Assembly (NCBI GenBank): GCA_028280575.1
Contig: JANQLN010000067.1
Location: 17,325 to 81,324, forward strand
Direction: 5' to 3'
Length of the DNA stretch: 64,000 bases
Source: Clostridia bacterium
GTDB taxonomy: Bacteria > Bacillota > Clostridia > Acetivibrionales > STF1-152
Below the pieces are notes generated by a model, which was not told where the DNA came from, searched no databases, and saw only the letters and a list, made by a program, of their open reading frames with translations. Both the position numbers and the translations under genes were made by a program. Position 1 is the stretch's first letter, and the number at the start of each line of letters is the position of its first letter. Below, piece by piece: positions 10,344 through 58,045 of this stretch.

Positions 10344-10665
10344 TTTTTCTCCCATTGCAGTATGTAACGTCTTTAATTCTTGCAATAGGGCTCTTGAAAT
10401 ACACAAATAGCTAATTTCCAAGTCACACTGCATAGAATTATGACGTTATATATGGTTATAAAATGGATAAACAATAAATACTATATATAACCATAAGTTA
10501 TAACCTTCATATTTCTAAGCATATTATATATTAATTTGAATAATTTGCAAACACCTAAATTTAGCAAATTGCTTAAATTTAAGGTATGGATAATAACTTT
10601 GATTTGTGGTATATTATATATTCATTGCATTAATCTTTTTTTATGAAAATCCAAGGAGGATATTT

Positions 10666-13462: not shown

Positions 13463-13709
13463 ATATAAATCCCCTTTCTTGTATGAGCATTTTGCTTATG
13501 TTAATGCTATTAACATACTAAATTCAGCTGTATGAATAATAAGCATTTTTAATATGGCCTTGCTAAAACCGGCATAAGCAAACTGCTTTTGTATGGAATG
13601 TCTTTAATTCTTGCATTATGGCTGAAAGTCGCTATTGTATAGAATTTTTACGTTACAGCCATAATTATTTTTTCAAAATAAAACATAAGCAATAACAATC
13701 AATTTAGCG

Positions 13710-34692: not shown

Positions 34693-35817
34693 TTATAAAT
34701 CTAATCCGAAAATGTTATTTCCAGTTGAAGAACGTATTTCTAATTTTGGCTTTATTATAATCTCTTCTGAATCCCTTTCAGGGTCTTCAATAACTCTATT
34801 TAAAAGGCGTATAGCCTCCTTGCCTAAATTTTCGGCTTGCTGGACAACACATGTAGGCGGTGTTTCAAGCAAATCTGCATCTCTAAAATCATCAAAAAAA
34901 ACCAGCGAAATATCACCAGGCGACGATAGCCCTAAAATTTTCATTCCTTTAACAAGCTTCCTTCCCATTTCATTATTAATAACAAGCAGCGCAGTTATAT
35001 CTTTATTACTCTTTAAATACTTTGTAATTTGCTCAATTTCAGTTTTTAAATCATGGGTTATAGCTTCTTCAAGGCGGTATCTGTGCTCAACGAGCATTCC
35101 ACTGTCAGCCAGCGCCTTTTCATAGCCTTTTATCCTGTCTTCTATACTGCTTGAACAGCTTGACAGTGATACAAATCCGATTTTTCCATGCCCAAGTTCT
35201 ATTAAATGCCGTGTAGCTTCATAAGCCCCTTTGAAATTATCTGTGTGTACAACATTGGTATTAACCCCTTTTAAGTATTTGTCTATAACTACCAAAGGAA
35301 ACCGGTTCAAGGTAAGCTTTAATATTTCCGGACAATATACCCTGTTTTCCACAGGATATACTATTATACCTTTTATCCCGGATGACAAAATCTTTTTAAT
35401 AATTTCTTCTTCCTTTTTTGCTGATTCGTCGGATTTATAAACAATAACATTATATCCCTGGCTTTCGGCCTCACTCAATAACCCTTCCAGTATATTTAAG
35501 ATAAAATTGCCTTTTAACTGGGGCAATATACATGCAATGTTTTTTATCTCCTCATTTCCAGCTATTTTATCATTTTTACAGGCATAATCACTCAAAGCAT
35601 TGGTGACAAACGTCCCCTTCCCCTGCATTCTATATACCTTTCCCTCTTCAGCCAGAAGATCCAAAGCTGTTTTAACAGTTATCCTGCTGACATCAAACTT
35701 TTCCGTAAGGTCATTTTCCGAGGGAATTCTATCATCAGGTTTCAACTGGCCAAATTCAATCATGTTCTCTACATACTTTTTTATCTGGACATATAGCTGC
35801 TCCTTATGATTAAGCAT
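34693..35817 (-). CDS. Transcriptional regulator with an N-terminal GntR-type HTH and a C-terminal LacI/PBP-type sugar-binding domain (AraR architecture)
   Basis: The GntR wHTH block is IPSENDLTEKFDVSRITVKTALDLLAEEGKVYRMQGKGTFV. A Peripla_BP-like body follows. Confidence 0.8.
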   Translation of the reverse strand: MLNHKEQLYVQIKKYVENMIEFGQLKPDDRIPSENDLTEKFDVSRITVKTALDLLAEEGKVYRMQGKGTFVTNALSDYACKNDKIAGNEEIKNIACILPQLKGNFILNILEGLLSEAESQGYNVIVYKSDESAKKEEEIIKKILSSGIKGIIVYPVENRVYCPEILKLTLNRFPLVVIDKYLKGVNTNVVHTDNFKGAYEATRHLIELGHGKIGFVSLSSCSSSIEDRIKGYEKALADSGMLVEHRYRLEEAITHDLKTEIEQITKYLKSNKDITALLVINNEMGRKLVKGMKILGLSSPGDISLVFFDDFRDADLLETPPTCVVQQAENLGKEAIRLLNRVIEDPERDSEEIIIKPKLEIRSSTGNNIFGLDL

Positions 35818-36289: not shown

Positions 36290-37405
36290 TTAAATAGTAT
36301 TTTTGAGCAATTGAGTTGAAGAGCGCCGCTTTAATTCAGGCGGCAGTATAATTTTTTCATATTCCCTGTCCGGCTCTTCAATAATTCTATTAATAAGCTT
36401 AACAGCTTCTTTTCCCATTTTTTCTCCCTGCTGGATAACGCACGTCGGAGGTACTTTAAACATATCTGCATACTGATAATCATCAAAGAATACTACAGAA
36501 ATATCCTCAGGTATTGATAATCCTTCTGCTTTCATTCCCACAAAAAGCTTTCTTCCTATTTCGTTATTTATAGTCAATAATGCCGTCATATCATTGTTTC
36601 TTTTTAAATATTTTGTAATCTGCTCTATTTCCGTCTTGATATCCTGGGTTATAATTTCATCCAGCCTCAGCCTGTAATCAACGGGCAATCCATTATCCGC
36701 AAGTGCTTTTTCATAGCCTCTTATCCTGTCCTCTACGCTGCTTGATTGACTATATATTGAAATAAAGCCGATTTTTTTGTGGCCAAGCTCTATTAAATGA
36801 CGGGTGGCCTCATAAGCACCTGTAAAATTGTCCGTATGCACCACGTTGGTGTTTATCCCCTTTAAATACCTGTCTATCACAACCAAAGGAAACCGTTTTA
36901 AGGTAAGTTTTAATATCTCTGTGTTATAAAGCTCTCCTTCAACAGGATATATTATTATTCCATTTACTCCTGCCAACGACATTTTTTTTATCTTTTTTTC
37001 CTCCTTTTCAATTAATTCATCTGTTTTATGGACAATAACATTATACCCACAAGACTCTGCCTGGCACAAAACCCCTCTCAATATCTCCAGGATAAAACTG
37101 CTGTTGAGTTGCGGTAATATCAATGCAATTGTCTGTACATTTTCTTCAAAATTATATTCACTAACTTCAATATATTTTTTTGCACCACTAGCTACAAATG
37201 TTCCTCTGCCCTGCATCCTATATACCTTTCCTTCCTGTGAAAGAATATTCAGGGCTCTTTTTGCAGTTATTCTGCTGACACTAAATTTTTCCATAAGCTC
37301 ATTTTCAGAGGGTACCCTGTCATCAGGCTTTAACTCATCCATTTCAATCATGTTTTCTATATACTTTTTAATTTGAAGATATAATTGTTCCTTGTTATTT
37401 ATCAT
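36290..37405 (-). CDS. Paralogous GntR-HTH/LacI-type sensor regulator (AraR architecture)
   Basis: It is collinear with the 34693-35817 product. By eye about two thirds of residues are identical, including long identical runs (NTNVVHTDNF.GAYEATRHLIELGH, KTEIEQITKYLK). Confidence 0.8.
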   Translation of the reverse strand: MINNKEQLYLQIKKYIENMIEMDELKPDDRVPSENELMEKFSVSRITAKRALNILSQEGKVYRMQGRGTFVASGAKKYIEVSEYNFEENVQTIALILPQLNSSFILEILRGVLCQAESCGYNVIVHKTDELIEKEEKKIKKMSLAGVNGIIIYPVEGELYNTEILKLTLKRFPLVVIDRYLKGINTNVVHTDNFTGAYEATRHLIELGHKKIGFISIYSQSSSVEDRIRGYEKALADNGLPVDYRLRLDEIITQDIKTEIEQITKYLKRNNDMTALLTINNEIGRKLFVGMKAEGLSIPEDISVVFFDDYQYADMFKVPPTCVIQQGEKMGKEAVKLINRIIEEPDREYEKIILPPELKRRSSTQLLKNTI

Positions 37406-37515
37406 TTCCTGTCACCTCTAATTTAGAAAAATATATTAATATCTCTATACTTTACATAAATCAATTATATAACAAGTATACCTTTTAAGTCAATTTCGAC
37501 AGGTTTTGAGCTTTT

Positions 37516-37840
37516 CTATTTTTTAAAATTGAGAAGATTTATGTGTATAATGAAACAGTTATCATTGGGAATGAATTTTGAAAATGTTAGTGTATAGGTT
37601 CTTGAAAAAGGCGTAATTTGCGGCATGGATGATGATTTTTGCTTTAGCAAAATATCATACCTACTGAAAGCATCGCGCAGCGATAGTTATTGCAAAGCCG
37701 GCATCTGAACTACGGATGGTGAATATGCCGGGTAGCCTTTTTCAATGTTCTAGACACTTACTTTTTCTTAATGAATGGACTGATAAATGGTTCATTATAC
37801 GCGTAAATTTATACCTATTTTTTTAAATTGAGAAGATTTT
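37516..37840. repeat. Non-coding inverted-repeat element bracketed by a 25-nt direct repeat
   Basis: The imperfect arms are 37539-37612 and 37735-37806, with identical ends (GTATAATGAA and GAAAAAGGC). The 122-nt core holds three local hairpins. The direct repeat CTATTTTTT(A/T)AAATTGAGAAGATTT occurs at 37516-37540 and 37815-37840. Confidence 0.6.
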
Positions 37841-37853
37841 GAGCCAAGGGGAC

Positions 37854-38531
37854 TCAATCCAGATAAACCTTTTTCATAATGCCCGCATTCCCGTTTTCTT
37901 TCGCTCTCTTTTTTATTTTGCGGTTCAAATAAGCAGCTAACGGCCGGTATAATATTTTAGGTATTTTCACTGTTATTAAATCCTGGCATGCAGAAGGTAT
38001 TTTTTTATTCTCCCCGATATTTTCAAGGGCAATTTCAAATGACTTTGTTAACTTCTCTCCTTCTTTCCCAAGGTTTTCTAAATGTGTCCCGTCAATCATT
38101 GCTCCTCCCCCATATGCAAGTCCTCCAAACCATTTCATCCAGGTTTCCAATGCAAAAAGCCTGCATTCATCAATCAGGGGTTCTACTCGTGTTATATCAG
38201 GAAATCCACACTGTCCTACGGCAAAAAAAACCTTATTTCTTAAATCACAGCCTGGCTCGTCAGCCATCTTTTCCATAAGCCAGATATCAAAAAACGGCAA
38301 AGCATCAGAATATATGGGTGCTATCATGGCTATAACATCACTTTTGGCAGCTAAATAATAAAAATCAGCCAATTCTTTTTTCCTGTCAAAATAATCTATG
38401 GCATGAACAATTTCAGCAGTGTCCCCAGAATTTTTGGCAAGCATTTTGATTGTCCTGGCAAAGCTTGCGGATGTGCCTTTTTTTCTTGGGCTTCCATTAA
38501 TTAAAAGAATTTTTTTTCTGCTCAGCTTCAA
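37854..38531 (-). CDS. Flavodoxin-like fold NAD(P)H-dependent FMN reductase family protein
   Basis: The N-terminal block KILLINGSPRKKGTS is typical of the FMN_red/Flavodoxin_2 families. Confidence 0.65.
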   Translation of the reverse strand: MKLSRKKILLINGSPRKKGTSASFARTIKMLAKNSGDTAEIVHAIDYFDRKKELADFYYLAAKSDVIAMIAPIYSDALPFFDIWLMEKMADEPGCDLRNKVFFAVGQCGFPDITRVEPLIDECRLFALETWMKWFGGLAYGGGAMIDGTHLENLGKEGEKLTKSFEIALENIGENKKIPSACQDLITVKIPKILYRPLAAYLNRKIKKRAKENGNAGIMKKVYLD

Positions 38532-44564: not shown

Positions 44565-44832
44565 AATAATATAACTCCTTTGCAGTTATTATTCATACGG
44601 CGGGTCAAATTTTCTGCTTTTTTAATTATAAACGTAAAAATAATATCTTTAAATGGATAAAAAAGATATCTTTTATAAAATTCAGTTATTTTTTTGAATT
44701 AGCAGGCAAATTAAATTATAATTATCAATAGAAACAGCTTTAATTCTTGCATTATGACGTTAAATCCGGAAGCAGGCAATTAGTTAATGCAAAAGTGATT
44801 ATTTATATAATTAAGGGCGGTGTTTAATAAAA

Positions 44833-51051: not shown

Positions 51052-51120
51052 TATGTCAAGGGGACGGTTCTTATGACACATTTTGTAAAAATGTGTCATA
51101 AGAACCGTCCCCTTGACATA
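51052..51120. repeat. Perfect 33-bp inverted repeat with a 3-nt spacer, abutting the asnS stop codon
   Basis: TATGTCAAGGGGACGGTTCTTATGACACATTTT-gta-AAAATGTGTCATAAGAACCGTCCCCTTGACATA. I verified the arms base by base. No U-run follows on the minus strand. Confidence 0.9.
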
Positions 51121-57791: not shown

Positions 57792-58045
57792 AAAAAACCT
57801 TTCGCCCATATATAAGGACGAAAGGTATAAGCTCCGCGGTACCACCTTATTTCTATACATTGTTGCCAATATATACTTAAGCAAGCATAAAATACTTGGA
57901 CTATTAACGTAAGTCAGCGCATCACCTACTGATATTCAGTGATGAGGCTCAAGAACGAGCTATATGTACTACCGTTCCGGTTCACACCAACCACCGGCTC
58001 TCTTTGAATCAATATGTACAGTTTTTTTCCCTCAACGCCTTAATC
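57792..58045 (-). promoter_or_regulatory. T-box leader (tRNA-sensing riboswitch), probable Leu (CUC) specifier
   Basis: Minus-strand elements: K-turn-like GTTGAG...CTTGAGCC, an AGAGAG bay (58003-57998), a distal-loop GGTGTGAA, the T-box AAGGTGGTACCGCGG (57848-57834), and the terminator ACCTTTCG...CGAAAGGT plus TTTTTT (57826-57792). By analogy with glyQS, the specifier is CTC at 57959-57957. Confidence 0.85.

What the first reader, a model, noticed from the sequence alone, without database searches (positions are those of the whole stretch)
37516..37840. Structured non-coding element: ~70-nt imperfect inverted arms, a hairpin-rich 122-nt core, and flanking 25-nt direct repeats
The element lies between the distal regulator and the flavoprotein genes.
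- The inverted repeat spans 268 bp. Both arm ends match (TTA.G.GTATAATGAA at the outer ends, GAAAAAGGC at the inner ends). By eye the arms are about 70 percent complementary.
- The core contains three local hairpins: ATGAT.TTTGCT/AGCAAA..ATCAT, ATCGC/GCGAT and CCGGCAT/ATGCCGG.
- The whole element is bracketed by CTATTTTTT(A/T)AAATTGAGAAGATTT, repeated with a single substitution.
- No ORF is present.
- The architecture fits either a MITE-like insertion or a long-hairpin structured RNA. In the second case a T-run at 37818-37824 could end a plus-strand transcript.
- Fragments of its sequence resemble parts of the recurrent intergenic motif family: TAGG.TCTTGAAA at 10387-10398, and CTGAAAG..CGCTAT at 13622-13635.
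Basis: seen in the sequence. Interest (0 to 1): 0.55.

Follow-up and report, generated by a model that had tools for sequence, protein, structure and literature searches.

The report
Hairpin repeat element flanked by direct repeats
A 274-base non-coding, hairpin-forming DNA element bracketed by a 25-base direct repeat sits between two ordinary gene clusters; it is most likely a small mobile or repeated element of a family not seen elsewhere, and not a proven RNA gene.

Summary
The described anatomy is real. A 25-nt direct repeat (24/25 identical) brackets a 274-bp element. Its 76-nt arms are 74% complementary and enclose a 122-nt core with three hairpins. No ORF exceeds 44 aa and none hits Pfam. 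The claimed resemblance to other intergenic motifs in the window is chance.

No homologue was found in the window, plasmids, phages, viral contigs, metagenome contigs or species-representative genomes. The host is a rare Clostridia-like MAG lineage, so neither covariation nor an empty site could be tested.

The best new evidence is indirect. An independent k=31 assembly (Logan, SRR20820735) breaks on both sides inside the element. A perfect palindrome on the same contig calibrates the k-1 rule. By that rule, window 37527-37822 shares 31-mers with another place in the sample, which points to a repeat.

The plus strand folds better (-90 vs -74 kcal/mol) and carries three AYGGAY motifs, one in a hexaloop. 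Its Rfam TwoAYGGAY hit is sub-threshold (25.7 vs 43 bits) and disappears for the core alone.

Verdict: a probable MITE-like or att-flanked repeat element of a new family. RNA function is unproven. Interest is modest.

The parts
37516..37540 (.). Left copy of the 25-nt direct repeat (CTATTTTTTAAAATTGAGAAGATTT)
   Evidence: the only two matches in 64 kb, with 0.01 expected by chance.
37815..37839 (.). Right copy of the direct repeat (CTATTTTTTTAAATTGAGAAGATTT); 1 mismatch, at repeat position 10
37541..37814 (.). Body of the element between the repeats: 274 bp, 35.8% G+C, non-coding
37537..37612 (.). Left inverted arm; contains GTATAATGAA
   Evidence: blocks I1, I2; 56/76 identical to the reverse complement of the right arm, about 9.7 sd above shuffles.
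37735..37810 (.). Right inverted arm; contains TTCATTATAC
37613..37734 (+). 122-nt core, 43% G+C against 29% in the arms. Hairpins at 37627-37661, 37670-37687 and 37698-37731.
37698..37731 (+). Hairpin CCGGCAU-C-UGAA-CU[ACGGAU]GG-UGAA-U-AUGCCGG. One fold puts an AYGGAY hexaloop (37712-37717) above a possible tandem G.A (my manual pairing, not scored by any tool). A competing fold pairs CAUCUG with CGGAUG.
   Evidence: Sequence; alternative folds; P(unpaired) of the GGA is 0.34.
37625..37630 (+). AUGGAU motif at the 5' side of the first core hairpin; mostly paired in the predicted ensemble
37775..37780 (+). AUGGAC motif in the internal loop of the right arm; unpaired in the ensemble. The opposite loop carries UUGGGAA (37565-37571).
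37527..37822 (.). Stretch inferred to share 31-mers with another place in sample SRR20820735: the 274-bp body plus the last 14 nt of the left repeat and the first 8 nt of the right repeat
   Evidence: Two Logan contigs end inside the element: L001 at 37556 and L007 at 37793. The k-1 = 30 rule is calibrated on the other end of L007, which lies 30 nt into the perfect palindrome arm 51052-51084. Logan uses k=31 and keeps every 31-mer once. This is an inference; no second copy was observed.
37522..37551 (+). Promoter-like match TTTAAA-18-TATAAT that overlaps the left repeat and arm; a mirrored TATAAT lies in the right arm on the minus strand
   Evidence: 10/12 match. Such matches are common in this AT-rich stretch (8 found against 3.8 +/- 1.9 in shuffles), so this is not evidence of function.
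37464..37493 (-). Context: the best promoter match for the AraR/GntR-like regulator gene (TTGACT-18-TATAAT). It lies outside the element, so the element is not in that gene's leader.

Best explanation
The interval holds a small non-autonomous repeated DNA element of MITE-like architecture. A 274-bp imperfect palindrome is inserted between the stop codon of a flavoprotein operon and the promoter of an AraR/GntR-like regulator gene, and it is bracketed by a 25-bp direct repeat.

**Shown**
- Inverted arms, the flanking repeat, no coding capacity and strong folding.

**Inferred from assembly-graph behaviour**
- At least one more copy exists in the source sample.
- The shared sequence runs from position 12 of the left repeat to position 8 of the right repeat.
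- Only the central T-W-A of the repeat is then locus-specific, and that triplet contains the single repeat mismatch.
- On this reading the 25-mer behaves like a specific integration site or att-like core: a Campbell-type insertion, or insertion into a site that resembles the element's joined ends. It does not behave like a random 25-bp target duplication.

**Inferred, weaker**
- If transcribed, the plus strand (antisense to both neighbouring genes) forms a roughly 70-bp interrupted stem capped by a three-hairpin core that displays GGA/AYGGAY motifs.
- This architecture is like TwoAYGGAY RNAs, and those also look like multi-copy long-hairpin elements.
- Any RNA-level role, such as protein binding or transcript insulation between the two gene clusters, is speculative.
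For: - **Direct repeat:** 24/25 identical, with 0.01 expected by chance.
- **Arms:** 74% complementary, about 9.7 sd above shuffles; fold z-scores are -6.6 and -7.6.
- **Coding:** no ORF above 44 aa and no Pfam hit.
- **Assembly breaks:** the Logan k=31 assembly of SRR20820735 yields a 54.6-kb contig ending at 37556 and a 13.3-kb contig ending at 37793. The interior is in neither.
- **Calibration:** the other end of the 13.3-kb contig stops exactly 30 nt into a perfect 33-nt palindrome arm. Logan keeps each 31-mer once (PMC12424806).
- **No local cause:** no exact repeat of 31 nt or more inside the window explains the breaks.
- **Boundary coincidence:** the inferred boundaries 37527 and 37822 fall on either side of the 3-nt centre of the repeat, which contains its only mismatch.
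- **Synteny:** the element sits at a synteny break. The 86%-identical flavoprotein in L002 is followed by a different gene. The regulators have no relative above 44% identity outside this genome.
- **Comparator family:** TwoAYGGAY members occur at 5 or more loci in one genome and at the tip of a roughly 340-nt hairpin in gut contigs.
Against: - No second copy was seen in 64 kb of the same genome.
- No copy was found in plasmids or phages, viral contigs, metagenome contigs or species-representative genomes (chance hits only).
- No transposase or integrase partner was identified.
- To my knowledge a 25-bp flanking repeat is far longer than usual bacterial target duplications.
- The inverted arms do not sit at the ends of the 296-nt inferred unit.
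- The assembly breaks could instead reflect a coverage gap at a hairpin, or an allelic difference inside the element.
- The public scans used exact patterns of 20-30 nt, so diverged copies would have been missed.
Confidence: 0.5

Rival explanations
1. A stand-alone structured small RNA gene on the plus strand. It would be a divergent relative of the TwoAYGGAY motif (Rfam clan CL00106), proposed in the literature to bind CsrA-type proteins through GGA loops. On this view the flanking repeat is incidental or is a relic of how the gene arrived.
For: - The plus strand folds to -90.1 kcal/mol with 8 G-U pairs; the minus strand reaches -73.7 with 2.
- All 4 wobble-compatible arm mismatches favour the plus strand.
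- There are three AYGGAY motifs and four GGA on the plus strand and none on the minus strand (shuffle P 0.0024).
- One fold places ACGGAU in a hexaloop.
- cmscan aligns the full TwoAYGGAY model 1-168 to 37565-37782 (+) at E 0.13.
- The core has higher G+C (43%) than the arms (29%).
- The original description notes very long P1 stems in the family.
- The CsrA-binding proposal for this family is in PMC4333381.
Against: - The score is 25.7 bits against a gathering threshold of 43.
- The hit disappears when only the core is scanned, so it rests mainly on the generic long stem.
- Only one AYGGAY can sit in a terminal loop, and a competing fold buries it.
- There is no canonical terminator, and the promoter match is at chance level.
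- No homologues were found, so there is no covariation.
- This view explains neither the 25-nt repeat nor the assembly breaks.
Confidence: 0.2
2. A single-copy scar of a past rearrangement. It could be the remnant of an integrated element between two att-like 25-mers, or a fold-back or template-switch insertion made when the sugar-utilisation and regulator block was acquired. It would have no present function and no mobility.
For: - The element lies exactly at a synteny breakpoint.
- Only one copy is visible.
- The arms are decayed, at 74%.
- The repeats carry one mismatch.
- The reconstructed empty site is itself an AT-rich weak palindrome.
Against: - It does not explain why an independent assembly breaks on both sides, with boundaries that bracket the centre of the repeat.
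- It does not explain the strand bias of G-U pairs and GGA motifs.
Confidence: 0.15
3. A cis-acting RNA hairpin in the 3' untranslated region of the minus-strand flavoprotein operon. It would act as a stabiliser, an RNase III target or a transcriptional insulator ahead of the regulator's own promoter.
For: - The element starts 14 nt after the flavoprotein stop codon and ends before the regulator promoter.
- No other terminator is detectable there.
- The minus strand still folds to -74 kcal/mol (z -7.6).
- From general knowledge, co-transcribed MITEs commonly act in this way.
Against: - No U-tract follows the stem on the minus strand.
- The minus strand is the poorer folder and lacks the GGA motifs.
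- This would be a secondary effect of an insertion and not an origin, so it is compatible with the best explanation.
Confidence: 0.1

Closest known systems
Bacterial MITEs and long-hairpin interspersed repeats (for example Correia, RUP, ERIC/IRU, bcr1); named from general knowledge
   Same: - Length in the 100-400 bp range.
- No coding capacity.
- Terminal inverted arms that fold into a long hairpin.
- Flanking direct repeat.
- Intergenic location next to operon ends.
- Indirect sign of several copies.
   Different: - The flanking repeat is 25 bp, against the usual 2-10 bp, and appears to be largely shared between copies.
- The inverted arms run the whole way to a structured, higher-G+C core.
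- No parent insertion sequence and no second copy were seen.
TwoAYGGAY RNA motif (Rfam RF01731; Weinberg et al. 2010, PMC2864571)
   Same: - Long, AU-rich closing stem with a branched tip.
- An AYGGAY hexaloop on a hairpin next to the closing stem.
- Clostridia-type host.
- Family members are multi-copy and sit at the tip of very long hairpins.
- cmscan places the full-length model on the plus strand.
   Different: - The score is below the gathering threshold, and there is no hit for the core alone.
- Only one terminal-loop AYGGAY is possible, where the family has two.
- An 81-nt insertion with two extra hairpins replaces the first hairpin.
- The five Psychromonas copies I checked have no flanking direct repeats.
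Integrated elements flanked by att-core direct repeats (Campbell-type site-specific integration); from general knowledge
   Same: - A 25-bp identical core on both sides.
- The inferred shared unit stops at the centre of the core on each side, as expected if crossover occurs there.
- The element sits at a synteny break.
   Different: - It is only about 0.3 kb and has no integrase.
- No tRNA or other classical attachment site is involved.
- No circular form or second site was observed.
CsrB/RsmZ-type protein-sponge RNAs (Rfam clan CL00106)
   Same: Unpaired or loop GGA motifs lie on one strand, including one that resembles the ACGGAU-type loop.
   Different: - There are only four GGA motifs, two of them predicted to be paired at least part of the time.
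- No csrA was found in the window by a signature search.
- No family of the clan reaches its threshold.

Membership tests
MITE / non-autonomous transposable element | Terminal inverted repeats | tested here: met
   The arms 37537-37612 and 37735-37810 are 74% complementary, about 9.7 sd above shuffles.
MITE / non-autonomous transposable element | Target-site duplication flanking the inverted repeats | tested here: inconclusive
   A 24/25 direct repeat abuts the arms. Its length is atypical, and the assembly evidence suggests that most of it is shared between copies. That fits a specific site or att core better than a random duplication.
MITE / non-autonomous transposable element | Several copies per genome at different loci | tested here: inconclusive
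   There is no second copy in the 64-kb window or in any public collection scanned. The breaks in the k=31 assembly imply shared 31-mers elsewhere in the sample. The rest of the genome could not be read.
MITE / non-autonomous transposable element | No transposase gene of its own; a related autonomous element supplies it | tested here: inconclusive
   The element has no coding capacity. No element with matching ends lies in the window. The partner cannot be sought without the genome.
TwoAYGGAY RNA (RF01731) | Covariance-model score at or above the Rfam gathering threshold (43 bits) | tested here: not met
   The score is 25.7 bits, E 0.13 in a 701-nt search. Nothing appears at gathering thresholds, and the core alone gives no hit.
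TwoAYGGAY RNA (RF01731) | Two terminal loops that each carry AYGGAY | tested here: not met
   Only ACGGAU (37712-37717) can form a hexaloop. AUGGAU (37625-37630) lies in a stem or junction, and AUGGAC (37775-37780) lies in an internal loop.
TwoAYGGAY RNA (RF01731) | Large closing P1 stem | tested here: met
   An interrupted stem of about 70 bp closes the structure. The family description says P1 is often 24 bp or longer.
TwoAYGGAY RNA (RF01731) | Covariation supporting the stems | not testable with these tools
   No homologue of this element could be retrieved.
Site-specific integrative element (att-flanked) | Identical core sequence at both junctions | tested here: met
   The 25-nt repeat has one mismatch, at its centre.
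Site-specific integrative element (att-flanked) | Cognate recombinase, a circular or excised form, and an empty site in relatives | not testable with these tools
Intrinsic terminator | G+C-rich stem immediately followed by a U-tract | tested here: not met
   There are 0 terminator-like sites in 37300-38000 on either strand.

The most novel reading that the evidence does not exclude
The element represents an undescribed class of miniature, recombinase-dependent hairpin elements. They would integrate at a specific ~25-bp site, with crossover in a central T-W-A, and carry a TwoAYGGAY-like GGA-loop RNA as cargo. If so, the long-orphan TwoAYGGAY motif and its relatives would be the RNA face of mobile long-hairpin DNA elements, not conventional sRNA genes.
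Probability: 0.12. Interest if true: 0.6.

Novelty: new member of a known kind. Interest (0 to 1): 0.35.

Why it matters
If the element is confirmed as mobile, it would define a new small repeat family in a poorly sampled Clostridia-like lineage. It would also be an example of a hairpin element with an unusually long, apparently sequence-specific flanking repeat.

It offers a concrete lead on the TwoAYGGAY motif, which has had no accepted function since 2010. The published alignments show that family at several loci per genome and at the tips of very long hairpins, so a mobile-element origin deserves testing.

In practical terms, the element separates a flavoprotein operon from an AraR-like regulator and may insulate or couple their transcription. 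As it stands, with one observed copy and no homologues, the finding is of modest interest.

Tried and rejected
- **Rfam.** At gathering thresholds nothing hits the locus. 6S RNA, ribozymes and riboswitches are absent even at E up to 10.
- **Other copies in the window.** blastn-short and nhmmer find only the self match and the self-inverted match.
- **Link to the recurrent intergenic motif.** Rejected.
- **Plasmid and phage BLAST of the element.** No match.
- **Exact-pattern scans.**
  - Viral contigs, five patterns taken from the element: 0 hits.
  - Metagenome contigs, two patterns: 0 hits.
  - Genome contigs with an arm-end pattern: 4 chance hits, L003-L006 (two inspected, L003 and L006: one pair of promoter -10 boxes, one coding stretch). 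The source genome is not in that collection.
- **Spurious-ORF trick.** Looking up the element's 44-aa and 36-aa ORFs as proteins gave no record and no homologue.
- **Empty-site or synteny comparison.**
  - The closest flavoprotein relative (86%, L002) has a different downstream gene.
  - The regulator has no relative above 44% identity outside this genome.
  - The paralogous regulator's upstream region shows no obvious similarity to the element region by eye.
- **Genuine TwoAYGGAY elements.** BLAST of a gut member against plasmids and phages, and a viral scan, found nothing. The five Psychromonas copies show no consistent flanking direct repeats.
- **Inversion of the core between the arms as the cause of the assembly breaks.** The predicted break points (37554 and 37791) do not match those observed (37556 and 37793). 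A mixed filled/empty population predicts a break at 37540, which is also not observed.
- **The 2026 bioRxiv preprint 10.64898/2026.09.22.753630.** It discusses TwoAYGGAY (52 mentions) but could not be opened. Term counts show 'reverse transcriptase' in its abstract, and no mention of CsrA, integrase, recombinase, MITE or inverted repeats. What it concludes about the family is unknown to me.

Full report
**Observation**

- A 25-nt direct repeat occurs at 37516-37540 and 37815-37839 with one substitution. These are the only two matches in 64 kb, where 0.01 are expected by chance.
- Between the repeats lies a 274-bp body at 35.8% G+C.
- Its outer 76 nt on each side (37537-37612 and 37735-37810) are inverted repeats. 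A global alignment gives 56/76 identical, score 32 against -6.8 +/- 4.0 for shuffled arms. The tool's ungapped blocks are 38 nt at 76% and 28 nt at 86%.
- As RNA, both strands fold far better than dinucleotide shuffles: z -6.6 and -7.6.
- The longest ORF is 44 aa, and three small ORFs (44, 36 and 27 aa) have no Pfam match.

- The T-run at 37818-37824 is not part of a terminator-like site. The scan finds 0 such sites in 37300-38000.
- The supposed resemblance to a recurrent intergenic motif is chance. That motif, AAYGTCTTTAATTCTTGCAWTA at 10366, 13597 and 44733, is unrelated.

**Context**

- Both neighbouring genes are on the minus strand.
- To the right is a flavoprotein (FMN_red) gene, 37854-38531, the last gene of a small redox cluster.
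- To the left is an AraR/GntR-LacI-type regulator, 36290-37405, one of two tandem paralogues that precede large GH2 glycosidase genes.
- The regulator's best promoter match (TTGACT-18-TATAAT, 37493-37464) lies outside the element.
- The element therefore occupies the terminator position of the upstream operon, not a leader.

**Known RNA families**

- At Rfam gathering thresholds, the only hit in the window is a T-box at 57811-58044.
- With relaxed thresholds, the best hit on the element is TwoAYGGAY (RF01731). It scores 25.7 bits against a gathering score of 43, with E 0.13, and the full model aligns to 37565-37782 on the plus strand. An 81-nt insertion sits where the family has its first hairpin.
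- When only the core (37600-37747) is scanned, the hit disappears. The score therefore comes mainly from the long AU-rich stem. Membership is not met.

Some plus-strand features are still non-random.
- The plus strand reaches -90.1 kcal/mol with 8 G-U pairs. The minus strand reaches -73.7 with 2.
- All 4 wobble-compatible arm mismatches favour the plus strand.
- The plus strand has three AYGGAY motifs (37625, 37712, 37775) and four GGA. The minus strand has none (shuffle P 0.0024).
- ACGGAU can sit in a hexaloop above a UGAA/UGAA tandem G.A (my manual pairing), although a competing fold pairs it.

TwoAYGGAY was proposed to be a CsrA-binding sRNA of Clostridia (PMC4333381). No csrA signature is present in this window.

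**What the family looks like in its original alignment**

The 2010 supplement says P1 is often very large. In the Stockholm file, Psychromonas ingrahamii carries at least five copies at different loci. Gut-metagenome members sit at different loci at the tip of a hairpin of about 340 nt, which I folded to -155.8 kcal/mol. The nearest named RNA motif therefore behaves like a long-hairpin repeat itself. I found no consistent flanking direct repeats in the five Psychromonas copies.

A September 2026 preprint treats TwoAYGGAY at length, but I could not open it. By term counts, it has 'reverse transcriptase' in its abstract and never mentions CsrA, integrase, recombinase or inverted repeats.

**Search for homologues**

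Every route was negative.
- No other copy lies in the window.
- Plasmids and phages give no match.
- Five exact patterns from the element find nothing in viral contigs, and two find nothing in JGI metagenomes.
- An arm-end pattern in species-representative genomes returned four chance hits and not the source genome (two inspected, L003 and L006: one pair of promoter -10 boxes, one coding stretch).
- The element's spurious ORFs are not on record.

The host is rare.
- The flavoprotein and the regulator each occur on one 107.5-kb NCBI contig and in one Logan sample.
- The nearest flavoprotein relative (86% identity) is followed by a different gene, so the element lies at a synteny break.
- The regulator's nearest outside relative is 44% identical.
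- Covariation and empty-site tests were therefore impossible.

**Assembly-graph evidence**

Logan assembles each run with k=31 and keeps every 31-mer once (PMC12424806). In SRR20820735, the contig carrying the regulator (54.6 kb) ends at window 37556. The contig carrying the flavoprotein (13.3 kb) ends at 37793. The interior of the element is in neither.

The far end of the 13.3-kb contig gives a calibration. It stops at window 51081, exactly 30 nt into a perfect 33-nt palindrome arm. That is the expected k-1 overlap with a node visited twice.

Applying the same rule, the sequence shared with another place in the sample runs from 37527 to 37822. Nothing inside the window can cause this: the longest exact inverted match is 12 nt or less, and the exact shared part of the direct repeat is 15 nt.

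The inferred unit is the 274-bp body plus the last 14 nt of the left repeat and the first 8 nt of the right repeat. The three positions left out (T-W-A, repeat positions 9-11) include the single mismatch between the repeats.

Several alternatives predict other break points.
- A mixed filled/empty population predicts a break at 37540.
- Inversion of the core across the perfect GTATAATGAA block predicts breaks at 37554 and 37791.
- A coverage gap at the hairpin, or an allelic difference in the interior, remains possible. Neither would be expected to place both inferred boundaries next to the centre of the repeat.

**Interpretation**

The best reading is a small, non-autonomous repeated element of MITE-like architecture (confidence about 0.5).

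If the graph inference holds, the 25-mer is not a random target duplication. It is a largely conserved site: a specific target, an att-like core with crossover in the central triplet, or a site that mimics the element's joined ends.

The plus-strand RNA features could be the element's cargo, as in the TwoAYGGAY-like reading. They could also be a by-product.

The rivals are:
- a stand-alone TwoAYGGAY-like sRNA (0.2);
- an inert single-copy rearrangement scar at the boundary of an acquired gene block (0.15);
- a 3'-UTR hairpin acting on the minus-strand operon transcript (0.1), which is compatible with an insertion origin.

**Novelty and score**

This is probably a new family of a known kind of element. 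It was observed directly only once, in an under-sampled lineage. Interest is modest (0.35).

The most novel reading not excluded is a class of site-specific miniature hairpin elements that carry TwoAYGGAY-type RNAs. I give it a probability of about 0.12. It would be worth following up by read mapping and graph inspection of SRR20820735 and a search of the full MAG.

Noticed in passing
window 51052-51120: A perfect 33-nt inverted repeat with a 3-nt spacer (TATGTCAAGGGGACGGTTCTTATGACACATTTT and its reverse complement). The Logan contig L007 breaks exactly 30 nt into it. Its function is unknown.
   Followed up: partly
window 10366-10392, 13597-13623, 44733-44754: A recurrent intergenic motif, AAYGTCTTTAATTCTTGCAWTA(K)GGCT: two near-identical copies plus a third at 86%. 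It may be an operator or regulatory site. It is unrelated to the element studied.
   Followed up: partly
window 57811-58044 (-): A T-box leader (RF00230) at 105.6 bits. It is the only Rfam family above its gathering threshold in the window.
   Followed up: no
window 34693-35817 and 36290-37405 (-): Two tandem paralogous GntR-HTH/LacI-type (AraR-like) regulators, 66% identical in protein sequence. Their nearest outside relatives are Paenibacillus AraR-like proteins at 44% identity, which suggests an acquired sugar-utilisation block next to GH2 genes.
   Followed up: partly
L002:1297-1500 (ENA contig, 86%-identical flavoprotein): In the closest relative found, the flavoprotein gene is followed by a different gene with its own promoter and ribosome-binding site. 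Neither the element nor the regulators are there. Synteny therefore breaks exactly at the element.
   Followed up: yes
L003:6740-7040 (Clostridia MAG JAZULT010000057.1): A chance hit of the arm pattern. Two convergent promoters with GTGTATAATGAA -10 regions lie about 250 nt apart and flank a small hydrophobic ORF (MDREYIICFMITLLLIVISIKK) with a strong ribosome-binding site. It looks like a type I toxin-antitoxin-style module.
   Followed up: no
Published TwoAYGGAY alignment (PMC2864571, Additional file 4): Members of Rfam RF01731 occur at 5 or more loci in Psychromonas ingrahamii. In gut contigs they form the tip of a hairpin of about 340 nt at different loci, and one copy has an insertion in an arm. 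The motif looks like part of a repeat element. Going by term counts, the one unreadable 2026 preprint does not discuss this.
   Followed up: partly
window 37620-37626, 37698-37704 and 37725-37731: The sequence GCGGCAU / CCGGCAU occurs twice, and either copy can pair with AUGCCGG. The result is two mutually exclusive folds of the core: a local hairpin that exposes ACGGAU, or a long-range closure that buries it.
   Followed up: partly
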